64,000 bases of DNA from Planctomycetota bacterium (GTDB taxonomy: Bacteria; JAJVIF01; JAPKYR01): contig JAUWTM010000005.1 in assembly GCA_030614715.1 (NCBI GenBank), forward strand, positions 415-64,414, written 5' to 3'. A program made the position numbers. Each line of letters opens with the position of its first letter. Within the stretch, counting starts at the first letter, position 1. Of this stretch, positions 24,001-45,000 are shown piece by piece.

Positions 24001-27000
24001 ACCAATAGGACCATCAACCACCCGCAGGATTCCCTGGTGACCCGGCACGTTCGCGTCTCCCATCCCCGGAAGGTCTACGTAAGGGATCTCGCAGGTAACT
24101 GTGAACAGATCCTCTGGAAGTTCCTGACCGCTCCCGGTCGAGATAAGACCGACAAGGTTATCCACACCCTTGCTCTCAAGGACATCAAGAATTAACTTTT
24201 TTGTTTCAAATGACATGAAGTGTTACTCGTCCGGTGTGTCGTCCTGAGAATTTACATCGTCCAGTAAATTAAGCTCGCGAAGGTGTCCCTGCGCGGTGTA
24301 GTAAAGGTCCCATGCCGCGATGCTCTCAGGAGTTCCGCTGATACCGAGATCGACAAGTATTTCTACGAGTTGCTGAGCTCTCCTGTGCATGTTTGTCCAG
24401 TCCTCAAGGTCCCTTGACAATTCTGCGATTCGGAGGAGTATCGGAATCTGGAGTCGCCTGTAGAACCTGTCCTCTTTTTCCCTCTGCAAGGCCTCCCGTA
24501 TTGCCGGTCTCACCTCGAACCATTCATCACTGCCCTCGACCAGCTCGTTAAAATTCGGGGCGATACTCAGAATGATCTCGGTTTCAGTCTCAGGATCCAG
24601 CATTATCTCACGTCTCGCCTGCTCCCGTTCACCCGCACCTGGAACGGTGCTGAACGCATTGTACAGCGGTAACAGCGCATCCTCTTTCCTGTCCAGACCG
24701 ATAAGGATCTCCGCTGTCAATTTCCACGAATCCCTCATCGTCATCGTCAGGAACTGCCAGTCGAGACGCGCACCTGATTTGCCCTTGAGCCCGTTGAAAT
24801 CGATGTCGCCGTTGTCGAAACGTGGAACGAATATCTCCACCATCCTGCCAAGGTTATCAAGTGCCTGCTCGGTGTCCTGAAGGTCGTAGTAATAGTACTG
24901 GGCGATTGCCAGGTAGTAGCTCGGGATGTTCACAGGGTCGAGTTCTATCGCGTGAAGCATCCTCTCAAAACCCAGCTGCTTTAAATCATCGTCGCTCTTT
25001 AATCTCCCGGCAAGAACCTCCATCTGACCGACGAAAAAATGCGGTGCTGGACGGTGCGGCGTAATCCTCAGCAGGCGGTAGCCGTACTCGAGTCCCGGAT
25101 CGACGATTTTCTCAAGATCGAGATCTGCACCCGACTGGTACAGGTCCGCTGCACCGTAGTAATGCGCGCTTAACAGGTCCTTGAGCGGGTACCAGTTCCA
25201 CGGATTGAACCGGAGACTGCCCTGCCAGAGCCTCATCCCCTCCTGTACAATGTCGGCTTGAGCTTCACTGTATAAAATACCGAAATCCGGTTCTTCCTGT
25301 GTCTGGCTCCTGAACGCTTCCCTCTCGAGCTGGCTCATCTGCTCTTCCGCACGCTCCGATGCAAGCATCGCCTGCTGGTCGACAAGGTCCTTGCCCTTTT
25401 CGTACAGGTTCATCGAAACGTAACCCGACGTATTCGCGAAGAACAACACGATCGCGACTGTCAGCCATACCCCCCGTGATTTTAGATACCATCCCTTTTT
25501 ATTATGCCCATCCGTGGAAGCGTTATCAGCCACGTCTTCATAATCTTTGTAATACGGTTCCCATTTCTCAATAGAAAGTTCCTGCTCCGCTTCAGGGTAC
25601 GTGAAAGTCCTCGCGACAATTGCAATCTGGCACACGAGAAGCATCGGGATTACAGGGAAAGTCCAGTCAAAGTCCAATGCCATGTGCCCGAGCTCGCCCA
25701 CGATCCCGCCAAGGAGCCCTATACGGTACACCGTAAGCATCTTACCGCGATCGGCCTTGAGTGTTTTTATTACCAGTCTTAGAACGATCCACAGGATCGC
25801 TGCGATGACAACAACGCCAACGACACCGCCCTCCACGAGGAACCGCAGATACAGGCTGTGCGGGTCCTTGGTGTAGTACTGCGGATCGGTCTGGAAGTGG
25901 ACGTAGTAATAACCGAATGTATTGAATCCGATTCCAAGCCATGGATGTTCCTTGAAAACCCTGATCGCGATGTCCCAGAACTCGAACCGTCCTACTACGG
26001 AGTAGTCGTCGGGACGCATCTGGTTCCACCTGTCGATGATCGGCTGGAAGAACCTGCCACGGTATCTCAACACGAAGGGTATAGCGGACAGGAAATAAAG
26101 CCCGATCAGTGCGAGCGGTCGCCAACCGACCATCACCTTTTTTCGCGACAGGAAAAACGGGATCAGGAGAAACGGGATCATGCCTGACAGCCATCCACCG
26201 CGTGACAGCGTAAGCCCGAACGCTGTGAATGTGATGTAGAAGATATAGAGGATCAGAAACGTGTGCCATCCCCGCCTGAGCGAGTAAAACTGTGCGAGCA
26301 TTACAGGCCAGATCAGGAGGAGGAATCCGGCACACGGATTATGCCAGTAGAAGAAACTTGAAAGCGGAGTCGTCTCTCCACGGCTCCAGAGTGCCCCGTA
26401 GAAGATAAACAGGCCGTGAAACGCGATCAAAAATCCCGCGACCAGCAATACCTCGATCAGCTGCCGCAGACGTTTCAATGAATCGATGTATGTGTAGCAG
26501 AGAAACGCCAGCGACGCATACGCGAGGATGTTCATCGTCTCCTCGACCGTCTCAATCGGCCTGATTGAGACGATATTCGAGGAAACCAGCATTATGAATA
26601 TCGAGATCGGGAGTACTGCAAGCAGATTTACATTCGACAGGCTCTCCCGGATGCGTCTGCCGTCGAGAAGCCCGAAAATCACTAATCCGCCAAACGCGAA
26701 CGCCCTGAAAGCCCATTGTGGAGCGCGAGTGAGATCAATGCTCCCGCCCTGATTTAGAAGCAGGTACGCAAGCAATATCGCGAAGTATATGATGAACCAG
26801 AGGCTTCTATCGGTTTTCAGATCGGACAGAAAACTCCTGTAATGAAGGAACCTGTCGGACACATGGCCTTCAGAGGTTATTTCATTTTGATTTTTCTCAC
26901 TGTTACTCAAATCGGGACAAGTATACATAAAAATTGTCTGTGAGGCTTACTCACCCTCATTTAAGACCATTACCGAACGATAACGGATCGATAACAATTA

Positions 27001-42000: not shown

Positions 42001-45000
42001 GCCTTGTAAGCCTCGGGATCGTCATTTATCAGTTCTTCGAGCAACTGCCGACCCTTCTCGAAATTCTTATTCCTGCATTCCCCGAGTGCTTCCTTCATTC
42101 GTGTTGCGGAATCAGCCATTGATAATCTCCTTCTTTCTGTGTCTTCAGTCCCTATGTCGGGCGGAACGCATCCGCTATGTGTTTTTTCACTTCAAGTACC
42201 CCGCCTGCACCGTCTCCAACGATCATCATGTCATACCTGACATCAAGATCCCACGGCAGCGTCTCCTGGTTCTCTGCAAGGTACCTCTCTCCAAGGGCTT
42301 CCATCCGTCTCTGCTGCCTGATACTGTAGTCCTTCTGCGGTTCGTCCACATTTTCACTGCCCAGACGTGTCTTCACCTCGCAGAAAACCAGCATCCTGCG
42401 ACCGTAAGCGATAATGTCTATCTCACCGGTCTGGTCGCGATAATTGGACCTGAGGATCCGGAATCCCTTTTCTTCAAGGTACCTGCGTGCTACCGCTTCT
42501 CCTGCTGCGCCCAGTGATTTCCTTCTTTTTACCTCACCCGGTTCACCCGGGCTTCTCGGAACGGACATCACGTCCTCTCCCCGGTCACGCGAAGAGAAAT
42601 TGTACTATTATCACGTCCTTCGGGCAACCCAACAGCCATATCCCGACAGGGTGCGAATGATATCCTGTGAATCGACGTCACTCCGTGTTCTTCGAGCGCC
42701 GTGTAATGGTCCTTCACCGCGTAGCCTTTGTGCCTTTCGAACCCGTAAAACGGGAATTCTCCCGAGACGATCTCCATGTAGCGATCCCGGGTGACTTTCG
42801 CGATGATACTCGCTGCCATGATGCTCTTTGACTTCGTATCGCCCTTGATCACCGCGACGGCATCGTCAAGGCCATTGGGCACCTGGTTCCCGTCGATCAA
42901 TATTATGTCCGGCCATGACGGAAGCATTCTCACCGCAAGCTTCATCGCTTCCATCGTTGACGCCAGTATATTTGTTTCATCAATTCTTGCCGGACCCACA
43001 AGAGCCACACCGACACAACGTGCATTCCGCCAGATCTCAGCGTACAGTTCCGATCGTCGTTCGGGTGTCAGCTTCTTGGAATCATCCAGACCCTCAATTT
43101 TGTGCTCACCGAGAACGACCGCTGCTGCCGATACCGGACCTGCAAGCGCACCTCTTCCGGCTTCGTCCACCCCGGCGATGGCCCGGTACCCATTTTTCAG
43201 ATACCATTCATCCAAAGCCTCTTCTGAAGCGGCTTTCAGGCGGAAGTCGAACAGGCCGGTTTGTTCGTTTGAGTAAGTCATTGCCTTTGAGCGCTAATGT
43301 CCACGCGTTATCAATCCTATCCTGCCCGGGGGCCAGAAAACAACCTCGGCCCTGCCCTCGATATTCCTGATTGGTATCGTCCCGATTACATGGCTGTCCT
43401 GCGAATTCGCACGGTTGTCACCGAGCACAAACACTTCACCCTGCGGTACGGTTATCGGACCATATCGGTCGTAATCCGGTGGACGGGACTCGAATCCCTC
43501 GTACAGGACTTCCCCGTTGATAAAGATCTCACCCCCCGAGATCTCGACTATATCCCCGGGTAGTCCGACCACCCTTTTTATATAGTCCTGGACCTCAACA
43601 GGTGGCATCACCGTTATGCCGTTTTCATCAACCCTCTGGAACCATGCGTCTCCAGCCTCTTCAGCGGCTTCGGTTGCCTCCTCGAGGGTCAGGCGACCGT
43701 GCGAGCTGCGTCGCGGAGGTTGAAAGACCCTGAAAATAATAACCTCACCGCGATTCGGCTCCCGGATCCGGTAAACCAGCTTGTTTGCGATGATACGGTC
43801 ACCCTCGTACAGGGTTGGCTCCATGCTTCCTGACGGTATCCAGAATGTCTGGAAGAAGAATATCCTGATCACGATCGCTACCAGGAATGCGTAGATGATG
43901 CTCTCCATCATCTCTGCAAGTGCGAATCCGGTCGGGGCAGCTACAAGGACCTTCAAATCAGCGCTTCCGAGATCGCATTCGACCTTCACTTCGGCGTCAC
44001 CGAATTCCTTCCCGGGATCGAAGACGATTGCCAGCTCACCAGATTCCGACAGGGGAACCTCGCCCTGCTCGAATTCGATCTCAGTGCCGGAAACGCCGCC
44101 GTTGGGAAGCGTCAGCGTACCGAATGATGTCGAAAGCCTGAGTCTTCCGGTTGACCTTGACGTTTCACCGAGGAAATCCCTGAACCGGGCGACAAGAGTG
44201 ACACGTCGGTCCTTTGATTTCTCCGACAAGTAAGATGGGTTGGCGAATGCAAGTTCAACAGAGGGCTTGAAAGAATTTGGCAGTTCCTGGTACGTCATAC
44301 GATCATGCGCATTATAACGCACTCTCAGCGGTCATTAAACCATCGGGATGCCGTTTCGCCTAGCCTAGTATTGACGAGAATGTCGGCGACAAAATTATTA
44401 ATCACTGGATTTCTCTACTCCATACATACTCTCAACACCAAAAAAATATCCAATAGGTGCGGTTATTAAGAACGAGATGGCTTTCGAACACGTATTTGTA
44501 ATTATTTTTATTTCTTCGACAAGGGGATATACTCCTTCACTCGGTAAATGGGCTTTATGAAGGCAGCCAAGTACAAGAATCAGAAATATTACATTGTATA
44601 AAACCGTCAAAAGAACGGCTAGCCAAATACGATATTTTGTCAATTCCTGTGTGGCTTGAAAGTTTTTTACTACAGATTCTGCACGTTTAGTAATAAACCA
44701 AAATATTAAAATTCCGCCCAAAATAATACTATAATTTATGGTGATTTGATTGAAACTTGGATAAAACTGGTCCTCGTCAATTGCTAAGACATATCGATTA
44801 CTAACTGGCATACGCTTCGTTGGAATATTAAAAGAATAAATAAAAGGGCCAATAGCGATAATATAACTTGCTATCCAAATGATCGTGATAATAAATCCCC
44901 AGCGAACGACTTTACTTTGTTGCCTTGTCAGATTGGTCATACGTGCTACCACCTAACAACAGAATTTCCGGACAATACATCCGGATCTTGTTATCGCTTC

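What the first reader, a model, noticed from the sequence alone, without database searches (positions are those of the whole stretch)
24223..42119. Protein-modification genes flank and interrupt the pilin-like cluster
The pilin-like genes share an 18-kb neighbourhood with several candidate modification genes. These are a 901-aa Wzy_C/O-antigen-ligase-like protein (24223-26928), a DUF2723-like GT-C-type protein (27051-29489), and a stand-alone Ser/Thr kinase domain (29668-30486). An ICMT-family methyltransferase sits directly upstream of P4 on the same strand (36359-36925), and a cytosolic TPR protein sits directly upstream of P6 (41445-42119). It is established that the pilin O-oligosaccharyltransferases PilO and PglL are Wzy_C-domain proteins. 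It is my inference only that these neighbours glycosylate, methylate or phosphorylate the giant pilin-like proteins.
Basis: inference. Interest (0 to 1): 0.6.

Follow-up and report, generated by a model that had tools for sequence, protein, structure and literature searches.

The report
Mosaic neighbourhood around pilin-like genes
Of five neighbour genes proposed to modify the giant pilin-like proteins of this uncultured bacterium, only a TMEM260-type sugar transferase with its kinase and a small TPR protein stay beside those genes in related genomes. The methyltransferase is a recent insert and the O-antigen-ligase-like gene belongs to a separate, older gene block.

Summary
All five neighbour genes exist as described.

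- **Block C (yraN, cytosolic TPR gene, pilin-like gene):** kept in all four families of the lineage.
- **Block B (TMEM260-type GT-C with TPR, then a bare Ser/Thr kinase):** lies beside the pilin array in two families. It is detached in the other two, and in one member of the first.
- **Block A (Wzy_C-TPR, pnp, trxB):** touches block B only in the window's family, and two contigs of that family break the contact. In two other families block A lies directly behind the pilus-assembly genes pilQ-pilMN.
- **ICMT/PEMT gene:** part of a 2.2-kb low-GC insert seen only in this genome.

None of the other pilin-like loci sampled carries orthologues of these neighbours; one G009 locus has GT-C paralogues about 6 kb away.

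The GT-C keeps the human TMEM260 catalytic and donor-binding residues. The Wzy_C protein is a WaaL-fold core, one extra helix and a TPR superhelix that should be periplasmic. HMMs place it in neither the PglL nor the WaaL group.

Both enzymes are therefore likely protein-directed periplasmic glycosyl transferases, but pilin-like substrates remain an inference (GT-C about 35-40%, Wzy_C about 25%). Direct kinase or ICMT action on the pilin-like proteins is unlikely. No co-expression data were available.

The parts
22385..24216 (-). trxB-like thioredoxin reductase (22385-23347) and a PNP_UDP_1 phosphorylase (23428-24216). They are the downstream operon partners of the Wzy_C gene (block A).
   Evidence: Pfam PNP_UDP_1 2.8e-27. 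PNP starts 6 nt after the Wzy_C stop. The order Wzy_C-PNP-TrxR is kept in f1, f2 (L079, L087) and f3 (G011).
24223..26928 (-). Wzy_C-TPR protein, 901 aa: a WaaL-fold membrane core, one extra TM helix (about 485-517) and a TPR superhelix (about 520-897) predicted to be periplasmic.
   Evidence: Pfam Wzy_C 2.7e-21. phmmer to WaaL 7tpg E=0.0055, with Arg314 and His357 aligned. AF2 pLDDT 77. Foldseek finds TPR proteins and WaaL 7tpg, TMt 0.59. TM count. H357 is invariant in 18 homologues.
27051..29489 (+). TMEM260-type (GT117-like, ex-DUF2723) GT-C glycosyltransferase with a C-terminal TPR domain, transcribed divergently from Wzy_C (block B).
   Evidence: Pfam TMEM260-like 7e-20 plus TPR. PDB 9rql E=7.8e-29. 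D57, H72, R284, Y287 and D463 correspond to human D52, H67, R264, Y267 and D441, and are conserved in 23-24 of the 24 closest homologues, the query included.
29668..30486 (+). Stand-alone cytosolic Hanks-type Ser/Thr kinase, 178 nt downstream of the GT-C on the same strand (block B). A terminator-like hairpin follows at 30513-30532.
   Evidence: Pkinase 5.6e-47. K48, HRD140 and DFG161 present. The orthologue follows the GT-C in every f1 genome and in G009 of f2. Terminator.
31196..36165 (-). Pilin-like paralogues P1 (31196-32338), P2 (32674-33903), P3 (33866-35020) and P4 (34999-36165). A terminator-like hairpin lies at 31147-31122.
   Evidence: The family has about 16-31 tblastn matches per genome in this lineage, many covering only the conserved N-terminal part.
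36359..38454 (.). Genome-specific insert of about 2.2 kb: an ICMT/PEMT-superfamily membrane methyltransferase (36359-36925, -) and a 301-aa probable lipoprotein (37549-38454, +).
   Evidence: GC is 0.44 against about 0.52. Neither gene is found in any orthologous locus, where P5 and P4 lie 220-420 nt apart. PEMT 4e-11.
38759..41136 (-). Pilin-like P5 (38759-39964) and P6 (39985-41136), separated by 20 nt. A strong terminator-like hairpin lies at 38643-38618.
   Evidence: The P6-P5 pair is present in all f1 and f2 loci.
41137..41444 (-). Conserved P6 leader. It has two sigma70-like promoters (TTGACA-17-TATCGT and TTGACC-16-TGnTATAAT), a TTCCGCACG..CCAATC box, an ATCATACATATCATA box and a covarying hairpin just before the RBS.
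   Evidence: One search gives the best promoter match of the region. One search aligns 9 f1 and 2 f2 loci. Both boxes are unique in the genome. No Rfam match.
41445..42571 (-). Cytosolic 224-aa TPR protein (41445-42119) preceded by yraN/UPF0102 (42152-42571, 32-nt gap). Together with the pilin-like gene they form block C.
   Evidence: The order yraN-TPR-pilin holds in f1, f2, f3 and f4.

Best explanation
The 18 kb is not one dedicated pilin-modification island. It is a junction of independently inherited blocks in a small uncultured lineage whose MAGs are labelled 'Planctomycetota bacterium' or 'bacterium'.

- Block C is yraN, a cytosolic TPR protein and the pilin-like array, which is driven by its own conserved promoters and leader.
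- Block B is a TMEM260-type GT-C (GT-C core and TPR) co-directional with a cytosolic Ser/Thr kinase.
- Block A is a Wzy_C-TPR ligase co-transcribed with pnp-trxB.
- The ICMT/PEMT gene and a lipoprotein gene are a strain-specific insert with no link to the pilin genes.

The mechanism I commit to is inferred, not shown. The GT-C takes a polyprenyl-phosphate hexose at the periplasmic face. Through its TPR domain it captures extended periplasmic polypeptide, and the membrane-anchored pilin-like proteins next door are among its clients (about 35-40%).

The Wzy_C-TPR protein is a periplasmic en-bloc glycan ligase aimed at a protein or at the envelope machinery rather than at lipid A-core. It is tied to the type IV pilus system in general and not to this array (about 25% that it glycosylates pilin-like proteins).

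The kinase acts in the cytoplasm, as a regulator or on the GT-C itself, and not on exported pilin domains. The role of the TPR protein with respect to P6 is open (about 30% a real functional partner).
For: Shown:
- Gene identities.
- Block C is found in all four families.
- The kinase follows the GT-C, and block B sits beside the pilin array, in 8 genomes or contigs of f1 and in G009 of f2. At the same f1-f2 distance the Wzy_C side was rearranged at several junctions.
- Wzy_C-PNP-TrxR is kept in f1, f2 and f3, with 6-nt or overlapping gene junctions.
- In f2 (L079, L087) and f3 (G011), Wzy_C lies on the same strand behind a secretin, pilMN and two more genes.
- ICMT is absent from all orthologous loci and sits in low-GC DNA.
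- The GT-C matches 9rql at E=7.8e-29 and keeps the catalytic and donor residues.
- In human TMEM260 the TPR domain is necessary and sufficient to recruit the acceptor peptide (bioRxiv 10.64898/2026.03.17.711096).
- The Wzy_C model is a WaaL fold, an extra TM helix and a TPR superhelix.

Precedent:
- TfpW is a GT-C with a periplasmic TPR domain that glycosylates pilin (bioRxiv 10.1101/2020.04.19.049825).
- All known pilin O-OTases carry a Wzy_C domain (PMC9829042).
Against: - No chemical or expression evidence.
- The GT-C and kinase are convergent to the pilin genes, not co-transcribed with them.
- Contact between blocks B and C is absent in f3 and f4 and broken in G007.
- Within f1 everything from rimM to rtcB is syntenic, so adjacency there carries little information.
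- The other pilin-like loci in this genome (C27, C94, C197, C87, C1) and about 20 paralogous loci in relatives have none of these neighbours. The one exception is L056, where GT-C paralogues lie about 6 kb from a pilin-like gene.
- The 7 other GT-C paralogues of this genome are not near pilin genes.
- 7 of 8 sampled distant TMEM260-like genes have no pilin neighbour.
- The human TMEM260 sequon is absent from 30 family members, and their Ser+Thr content is ordinary.
- The P6 leader motifs occur nowhere else in the genome, so there is no shared-regulon signal.
Confidence: 0.55

Rival explanations
1. Pure inherited synteny. None of the neighbours acts on the pilin-like proteins. The GT-C and Wzy_C-TPR serve other envelope acceptors such as LPS or EPS assembly or other periplasmic glycoproteins, the kinase is a housekeeping regulator, and the TPR gene is simply the last gene of the rplS-lepB-rnhB-yraN operon.
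For: - The whole rimM-to-rtcB stretch is collinear in f1.
- Wzy_C is co-transcribed with pnp-trxB.
- In f4 it sits near rpe and a Wzt-type O-antigen ABC ATPase.
- The G009 cluster is flanked by a second Wzy_C gene, an acyltransferase and a MurJ-like flippase, a typical glycan-assembly set.
- The TPR gene is 32 nt from yraN but 308 nt from P6, with promoters in between.
- The kinase is a single-copy gene 50-85% identical across the lineage, and in G011 it lies beside the mraW-PBP division genes.
- Paralogous pilin-like loci lack these neighbours.
Against: - Both membrane enzymes carry large TPR domains predicted to be periplasmic, which lipid-directed ligases do not need.
- Contact between blocks B and C survived the f1-f2 split while the Wzy_C side was reshuffled.
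- Wzy_C borders a type IV pilus-related block in three families: the pilin array in f1 and pilQ-pilMN in f2 and f3.
- yraN-TPR-pilin is kept even where lepB and rnhB were rearranged, as in f4.
Confidence: 0.35
2. The Wzy_C-TPR protein is the lineage's type IV pilus-associated O-oligosaccharyltransferase. It would be a new TPR-guided class beside PglL, TfpO, PglS and TfpM, and the main modifier of pilins including P1-P6. The GT-C would be secondary or unrelated.
For: - Wzy_C domain with invariant His357 and Arg314.
- Extra TM helix plus TPR superhelix, placed in the periplasm by TM count.
- It lies directly behind pilQ-pilMN in f2 and f3, and near the pilin array in f1.
Against: - No PglL_A or Wzy_C_2 domain. 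The only NCBIfam hits, far below cut-off, are an exosortase-associated ligase model and IctB.
- It is not downstream of any pilin gene.
- No pilin-like protein here ends in Ser or Thr.
- Its constant partners are pnp-trxB.
- In f4 it sits beside a Wzt-type ABC ATPase.
- Periplasmic TPR domains also scaffold polysaccharide export (my own knowledge of PgaA, BcsC and AlgK).
Confidence: 0.2
3. One reading: all five neighbours (Wzy_C, GT-C, kinase, ICMT, TPR) form one system that glycosylates, phosphorylates and methylates the giant pilin-like proteins.
For: All five genes lie within 18 kb of the six paralogues. ICMT and the TPR gene are on the same strand as the pilin genes.
Against: - ICMT is a genome-specific insert.
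- Another f1 genome has an unrelated class-I methyltransferase at that spot.
- The kinase has no TM segment and cannot reach exported domains.
- Pilin N-methylation is the job of the prepilin peptidase (my own knowledge). A Peptidase_A24 gene is present elsewhere, at G000:C38.
- The pilin-like proteins have no CaaX-type C-terminus.
- The blocks separate in relatives.
Confidence: 0.03

Closest known systems
TfpW of Pseudomonas aeruginosa group IV strains (pilin D-arabinofuranosyl transferase)
   Same: [quoted passage not shown] The window's GT-C has the same overall architecture and lies next to pilin-like genes.
   Different: tfpW lies immediately downstream of pilA in one operon. Here the GT-C is convergent to the array, 0.9 kb from P1, with the kinase gene between them. 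It belongs to the TMEM260 family rather than the ArnT/Emb-like group. Its sequence relation to TfpW was not tested, and the putative clients are 380-aa pilin-like proteins.
Human TMEM260 (protein O-mannosyltransferase; PDB 9rql/9rqm/9rqn)
   Same: Homologous over the GT-C core and part of the luminal Rossmann-like domain (E=7.8e-29). D52, H67, R264, Y267 and D441 have conserved equivalents, and a TPR tail is present. In the human enzyme the TPR domain recruits the acceptor peptide.
   Different: The human enzyme is in the eukaryotic ER, uses Dol-P-Man and targets IPT domains through a defined sequon. That sequon is absent from P1-P6 and from 24 relatives. R355 has no aligned equivalent. Donor and acceptor are unknown here.
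Pilin-specific Wzy_C O-oligosaccharyltransferases TfpO/PilO, TfpM and PglS
   Same: A Wzy_C domain with the essential histidine and a pilin-type neighbourhood (PMC9829042).
   Different: Those enzymes are roughly half the size (my own knowledge for the figure), and no TPR superhelix is described for them. They are encoded immediately downstream of the cognate pilin, and TfpO and TfpM act on a C-terminal Ser or Thr. Here the protein has 901 aa with a TPR superhelix, lies 4.3 kb from P1 on the other side of two genes, forms an operon with pnp-trxB, and no pilin-like protein ends in Ser or Thr.
PglL general O-oligosaccharyltransferase (Neisseria, Acinetobacter)
   Same: A Wzy_C-domain enzyme whose gene need not be linked to pilin genes.
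   Different: No PglL_A or Wzy_C_2 domain is detectable even at E<=10, and a TPR tail is present.
WaaL O-antigen ligase (Cupriavidus metallidurans, PDB 7tpg)
   Same: The only solved structure that matches the membrane core (phmmer E=0.0055; Foldseek TMt 0.59).
   Different: The window protein has an extra TM helix and a TPR domain of about 380 aa. It is not in an LPS-core gene cluster, and no WaaL-specific NCBIfam model matches.

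Membership tests
TfpO/TfpM/PglS pilin-specific O-OTases | Wzy_C domain with the conserved catalytic histidine | tested here: met
   Pfam Wzy_C 2.7e-21. His357 aligns with the WaaL histidine and is invariant in 18 homologues.
TfpO/TfpM/PglS pilin-specific O-OTases | Gene immediately downstream of its cognate pilin gene | tested here: not met
   The Wzy_C gene is 4.3 kb from P1, separated from it by the GT-C and kinase genes, and forms an operon with pnp. 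In f2, f3 and f4 it is not near any pilin-like gene.
TfpO/TfpM/PglS pilin-specific O-OTases | Acceptor pilin with a C-terminal Ser or Thr (TfpO, TfpM) | tested here: not met
   P1-P6 end in W, Q, W, L, G and R.
PglL general O-OTase | PglL_A and/or Wzy_C_2 accessory domains beside Wzy_C | tested here: not met
   Only Wzy_C is found at E<=10 on residues 1-520, and nothing on residues 521-901.
PglL general O-OTase | Transfers lipid-linked glycan to Ser or Thr of proteins | not testable with these tools
   Needs a glycoengineered laboratory E. coli strain or glycoproteomics.
WaaL lipid A-core ligase | WaaL-type 12-TM fold with a periplasmic loop carrying Arg and His | tested here: met
   Foldseek 7tpg_B TMt 0.59 over 431 columns. 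phmmer E=0.0055 with R314 and H357 aligned.
WaaL lipid A-core ligase | Match to a WaaL-specific curated model, or location in an LPS core or O-antigen cluster | tested here: not met
   NCBIfam gives only PEP_O_lig_1 and IctB, both far below cut-off. The neighbours are pnp, trxB and the GT-C. In f4 a Wzt-type ABC ATPase lies nearby, so this point is not fully closed.
TMEM260 / GT117 protein O-mannosyltransferases | Sequence homology across the GT-C core | tested here: met
   phmmer to 9rql E=7.8e-29, residues 34-513 against 29-490. Pfam TMEM260-like 72 bits against a cut-off of 24.
TMEM260 / GT117 protein O-mannosyltransferases | Catalytic and donor-binding residues D52, H67, R264, Y267 and D441 | tested here: met
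   The equivalents are D57, H72, R284, Y287 and D463. D463 is shifted by one residue in the pairwise alignment. They are conserved in 23-24 of the 24 closest homologues and in 66-100 of 102 family members. R355 has no aligned equivalent.
TMEM260 / GT117 protein O-mannosyltransferases | Extracytoplasmic TPR acceptor-binding domain | tested here: met
   TPR_2, TPR_16 and TPR_1 hits at residues 722-835 of the 851-aa frame. Matches to consensus TPR structures. The periplasmic side is inferred from homology only.
TMEM260 / GT117 protein O-mannosyltransferases | Human acceptor sequon P-x5-P-x3-G-P-x2-[GA]-G-G-x2-[ST] in the proposed substrates | tested here: not met
   0 of 30 pilin-like proteins carry the full motif or its core. 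A bacterial enzyme may read a different motif.
TfpW-type pilin GT-C | Encoded directly after the major pilin gene | tested here: not met
   The GT-C is convergent to P1, with the kinase gene and a 709-nt repeat-rich spacer between them.
ICMT (isoprenylcysteine carboxyl methyltransferase) | Score above the family threshold | tested here: not met
   Pfam ICMT 20.8 bits against 24. NCBIfam isopcys_mtase 49 bits against 160. Pfam PEMT 43.6 bits against 25 is met. The protein belongs to the superfamily only.
   There is one orthologue, 51% identical, in G001 on a contig without pilin genes. It is absent from all orthologous loci.
Hanks-type Ser/Thr kinase | Complete catalytic domain with Lys, HRD and DFG | tested here: met
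   Pkinase 160.8 bits. K48, H140-R-D and D161-F-G present.

The most novel reading that the evidence does not exclude
Two TPR-guided periplasmic enzymes jointly O-glycosylate the 380-aa pilin-like fibre subunits of this candidate lineage. One is a bacterial homologue of the human O-mannosyltransferase TMEM260. The other is a WaaL-fold Wzy_C ligase carrying a 380-residue TPR superhelix. The co-transcribed cytosolic kinase would tune the GT-C. This would give the first bacterial client for the TMEM260/GT117 family and a fifth, TPR-bearing class of pilin O-oligosaccharyltransferase.
Probability: 0.15. Interest if true: 0.7.

Novelty: new variant of a known kind. Interest (0 to 1): 0.4.

Why it matters
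Pilin glycosylation by enzymes encoded next to pilin genes is well known (TfpO, TfpM, PglS, TfpW). No bacterial member of the TMEM260 family has a known substrate, as far as I could find. Wzy_C proteins fused to a large TPR domain are also uncharacterised.

This locus offers a concrete and testable pairing of candidate enzymes with candidate substrates: an intact TMEM260-type enzyme, a Wzy_C-TPR ligase and an expanded family of giant pilin-like proteins.

They redirect the Wzy_C question towards the pilus assembly machinery (pilQ-pilMN), which it follows in two other families.

Tried and rejected
- **Shared regulatory motif.** The conserved boxes of the P6 leader occur nowhere else in the genome, so they give no regulon link to Wzy_C, the GT-C or the kinase.
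- **Known RNA families.** None found in 24000-42600.
- **PglL versus WaaL by HMM.** Only the generic Wzy_C model matches. The PDB holds only WaaL as a solved relative. The question therefore stays open.
- **Fold of the pilin-like globular domain.** The AF2 model is poor (pLDDT 64) and only the N-terminal pilin helix finds structural matches. I could not test for an IPT-like TMEM260 target domain.
- **Human TMEM260 sequon in P1-P6.** Absent. The PEVFGGG motif only looks similar.
- **Early tooling error.** I first thought loci from other genomes were not readable in the Python box. They were, in multi-record files.
- **Broad link between TMEM260-like genes and pilin genes.** That is suggestive but too small a sample to generalise.

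Full report
**Observation**

- **24223-26928(-).** A 901-aa protein with a Pfam Wzy_C domain (E=2.7e-21, residues 230-375).
- **27051-29489(+).** Pfam TMEM260-like, the renamed DUF2723, with C-terminal TPR repeats.
- **29668-30486(+).** A 272-aa protein that is a kinase domain and nothing else (Pkinase E=5.6e-47). It has no TM segment and keeps K48, HRD140 and DFG161.
- **36359-36925(-).** Passes the Pfam PEMT threshold. It falls below the ICMT and NCBIfam isoprenylcysteine-methyltransferase thresholds.
- **41445-42119(-).** A 224-aa all-TPR protein with no signal peptide or TM segment.
- **P1-P6.** Six paralogues of about 380-410 aa; five have a prepilin-type GF(T/S)xxE N-terminus. P2 lacks the motif.

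**The lineage and the family**

- The genome is a 254-contig MAG.
- The genome search with relatives (n=40) returned 8 other species in its family (f1), 2 more in its order (f2) and 3 more in its class (f3, f4). All further genomes returned were only 'same domain'.
- Public titles call these MAGs 'Planctomycetota bacterium' or just 'bacterium'.
- The pilin-like family gives about 16-31 tblastn matches per genome throughout this lineage. Many of them cover only the conserved N-terminal part, and far fewer are full length. Outside the lineage only the N-terminal helix matches.

**Transcription layout in the window**

- *Wzy_C side.* Wzy_C is followed after 6 nt by a PNP_UDP_1 phosphorylase and then a thioredoxin-reductase-like gene.
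- *GT-C side.* The GT-C is divergent from Wzy_C, 122 nt away. The kinase follows 178 nt after the GT-C, and then comes a terminator-like hairpin at 30513-30532.
- *Pilin genes.* They are on the opposite strand, convergent to the kinase across a 709-nt repeat-rich spacer. Terminator-like hairpins follow P1 and P5.
- *P6 promoters.* The strongest promoter match of the region lies between the TPR gene and P6.

Only ICMT and the TPR gene share a strand with the pilin genes, and both are separated from them by promoter-like sites.

I mapped orthologues of every gene in 13 related genomes and in about 100 fetched loci. Three blocks emerge.

*Block C: yraN, TPR gene, pilin-like gene.*
- It is present in f1 (9 loci), f2 (G009, G010), f3 (G011) and f4 (G012).
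- The weak yraN of G011 was confirmed separately.
- In f4 the block persists although lepB is inverted and rnhB lies elsewhere.

*Block B: GT-C followed by the kinase.*
- It is found beside the pilin array in f1 and in G009 of f2.
- In f3 and f4 the kinase orthologue (50-52% identical) and the best GT-C hit lie on different contigs or 32 kb apart, with no pilin gene nearby. In G011 the kinase sits next to mraW and a PBP gene.
- In G007 of f1 the 10 kb after the kinase hold no pilin-like gene.

*Block A: Wzy_C, PNP, TrxR.*
- It is kept in f1, f2 and f3.
- Its contact with block B exists only in f1. It is broken in two f1-level contigs: L086 has other genes upstream, and L084 has an IS5-like transposase gene.
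- In f2 (L079, L087) and f3 (G011) Wzy_C lies on the same strand directly behind a secretin with an AMIN domain, a PilM-PilN fusion and two or three further genes. These are the pilus assembly genes.
- In the window's genome those assembly genes are on other contigs and are not followed by Wzy_C.
- In f4 Wzy_C is followed by rpe and a Wzt-type ABC ATPase.

*ICMT.*
- It has one true orthologue (51% identical, G001), on a contig without pilin genes.
- In every orthologous locus P5 and P4 are 220-420 nt apart and neither ICMT nor the 301-aa lipoprotein is present.
- The 36-38 kb interval has GC 0.44 against about 0.52.
- Another f1 genome (L080) carries an unrelated class-I SAM methyltransferase gene within the pilin-like array, between the P1-type gene and the kinase. 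This region of the array therefore appears to accept insertions.

*Paralogous loci.*
- The other family members in this genome (contigs C27, C94, C197, C87, C1) carry none of the five neighbour types on their contigs. The other seven GT-C paralogues are not near pilin-like genes.
- About 20 paralogous pilin-like loci in relatives also lack them. This includes the four-gene array of the near-complete G011 genome.
- One G009 locus (L056) has GT-C paralogues about 6 kb from a pilin-like gene.

*Control.*
- Within f1 the entire stretch from rimM to rtcB is collinear, so adjacency inside f1 says little.
- Between f1 and f2 the Wzy_C side was rearranged at several junctions within 20 kb. The convergent junction between the pilin array and the kinase-GT-C pair survived. 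I read this as modest support for a real link between blocks B and C.

**What the two membrane enzymes are**

*GT-C.*
- It matches the cryo-EM structure of human TMEM260 at E=7.8e-29 over residues 34-513.
- Human D52, H67, R264, Y267 and the catalytic base D441 correspond to D57, H72, R284, Y287 and D463. The last is shifted by one residue in the pairwise alignment.
- These residues are conserved in 23-24 of the 24 closest homologues.
- In the human enzyme the luminal TPR domain is necessary and sufficient to recruit the acceptor peptide, and the enzyme acts on extended polypeptide (bioRxiv 10.64898/2026.03.17.711096).
- The human sequon is absent from 30 pilin-like proteins, and their Ser+Thr content is ordinary.

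*Wzy_C protein.*
- It was modelled at pLDDT 77.
- Foldseek returns TPR superhelices for the C-terminal part (about residues 520-897). For the membrane core it returns WaaL 7tpg and no other membrane protein (TMt 0.59).
- Arg314 and His357 align with the WaaL loop residues. His357 is invariant in 18 homologues.
- After the catalytic periplasmic loop there are three helices, a disordered acidic linker and one extra helix (485-517). By analogy with WaaL topology this should put the TPR domain in the periplasm. That placement is an inference.
- HMMs give only the generic Wzy_C model. There is no PglL_A, Wzy_C_2 or WaaL-specific match. The protein can be filed neither as PglL-like nor as WaaL-like.

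**Precedents**

- All known pilin O-oligosaccharyltransferases carry a Wzy_C domain with an essential histidine. The pilin-specific ones are encoded right after their pilin gene (PMC9829042).
- Earlier notes of this scan report pilin-linked TMEM260-type genes in CPR bacteria. I treated these as leads only.
One, from a Gottesmanbacteria genome, lies between the pilin gene and pilD in a pilB-pilT-pilC-pilin operon. Seven have no pilin neighbour.

**Interpretation**

- The neighbourhood is a mosaic.
- ICMT is unrelated to the pilin genes.
- The kinase is cytosolic and cannot reach exported domains. Its constant partner in f1 and f2 is the GT-C.
- Pilin N-methylation is normally done by the prepilin peptidase (my own knowledge). 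A Peptidase_A24 gene is present elsewhere in this genome.
- The GT-C is very probably an active, protein-directed periplasmic glycosyltransferase. That the pilin-like proteins are among its clients is an inference, which I put at about 35-40%.
- The Wzy_C-TPR protein looks like a protein- or machinery-directed glycan ligase. It borders pilus-related genes in three families, but its fixed partners are pnp and trxB. I put pilin glycosylation by it at about 25%.
- The TPR gene is the most faithfully linked neighbour. It is closer to yraN (32 nt) than to P6 (308 nt), and P6's own conserved promoters lie in between. I put a functional tie to the pilin-like proteins at about 30%.

**Limits**

- All relatives are MAGs, so contig breaks hide some junctions.
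- The globular fold of the pilin-like proteins could not be modelled.

Noticed in passing
window 41137-41444 (minus strand): The P6 leader is strongly conserved across 9 f1 loci and partly in 2 f2 loci. It has two sigma70-like promoters, a TTCCGCACG..CCAATC box, an ATCATACATATCATA box and a hairpin with compensatory changes directly before the RBS. Both boxes are unique in the genome, and nothing matches Rfam. It may be a dedicated regulatory leader.
   Followed up: partly
L079:1175-12832, L087:2-11722, L028:2147-12558: In two other families of the lineage the Wzy_C-TPR gene lies on the same strand directly behind the pilus assembly genes: a secretin with an AMIN domain, a PilM-PilN fusion and two small genes. 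In f2 a Proton_antipo_M-like membrane protein is also there. pnp and trxB lie downstream.
   Followed up: partly
window 30584-30688 and 30900-31104: The convergent kinase-P1 spacer holds a 21-nt-periodic array of TATTTTCTAAATGTC-like units and two 96-nt direct repeats, 84% identical. An imperfect 18-nt inverted repeat was detected in the second copy.
   Followed up: partly
L084:1837-5307: In one f1-level metagenome contig the Wzy_C ORF appears to carry an N-terminal J-domain-like extension (HPD motif). It is preceded by an IS5-like transposase fragment, at the point where its contact with the GT-C is broken.
   Followed up: no
L080:5049-5594: Another f1 genome has an unrelated class-I SAM methyltransferase gene within its pilin-like array, between the P1-type gene and the kinase; the window carries its ICMT/PEMT insert elsewhere in the array (between P5 and P4). 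The region seems to accept insertions.
   Followed up: no
L113:1322-13282: A Gottesmanbacteria (CPR) contig has the order pilB, pilT, pilC, pilin, TMEM260-like GT-C, YfhO-like GT-C, pilD, then minor pilins. This is a clear case of a TMEM260-type gene inside a type IV pilus operon.
   Followed up: partly
L112:6001-10620: In an Acidobacteria contig a TMEM260-like gene is followed directly by a Pkinase-TPR gene. This echoes the GT-C-kinase pair of the window, but it may be chance in a kinase-rich phylum.
   Followed up: no
window 44398-46104: Two genes, one for a 4-TM protein and one for an acidic secreted protein, in AT-rich DNA (GC 0.41) split rplS from lepB. In relatives rplS and lepB are about 90-320 nt apart in most loci, without these genes.
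   Followed up: partly
window 16322-18364: A third GT-C-type protein (weak PMT_2 match, 680 aa) belongs to the conserved rtcB-comM block. Weak paralogues of it lie next to pilin-like genes in locus L054.
   Followed up: no
window 61130-63928: A 932-aa protein matches the Ca-binding domain and domain 2 of the binary-toxin B / protective-antigen family (Pfam E=2.7e-10 and 7e-6). A PKD-domain protein is encoded next to it. I did not examine it further.
   Followed up: no
L024:1153-6467: In G009 (f2) the GT-C-kinase-pilin cluster is flanked by a different 457-aa Wzy_C protein, a hexapeptide acyltransferase, a MurJ-like flippase and an M24 peptidase. The first three are a glycan-assembly set.
   Followed up: no
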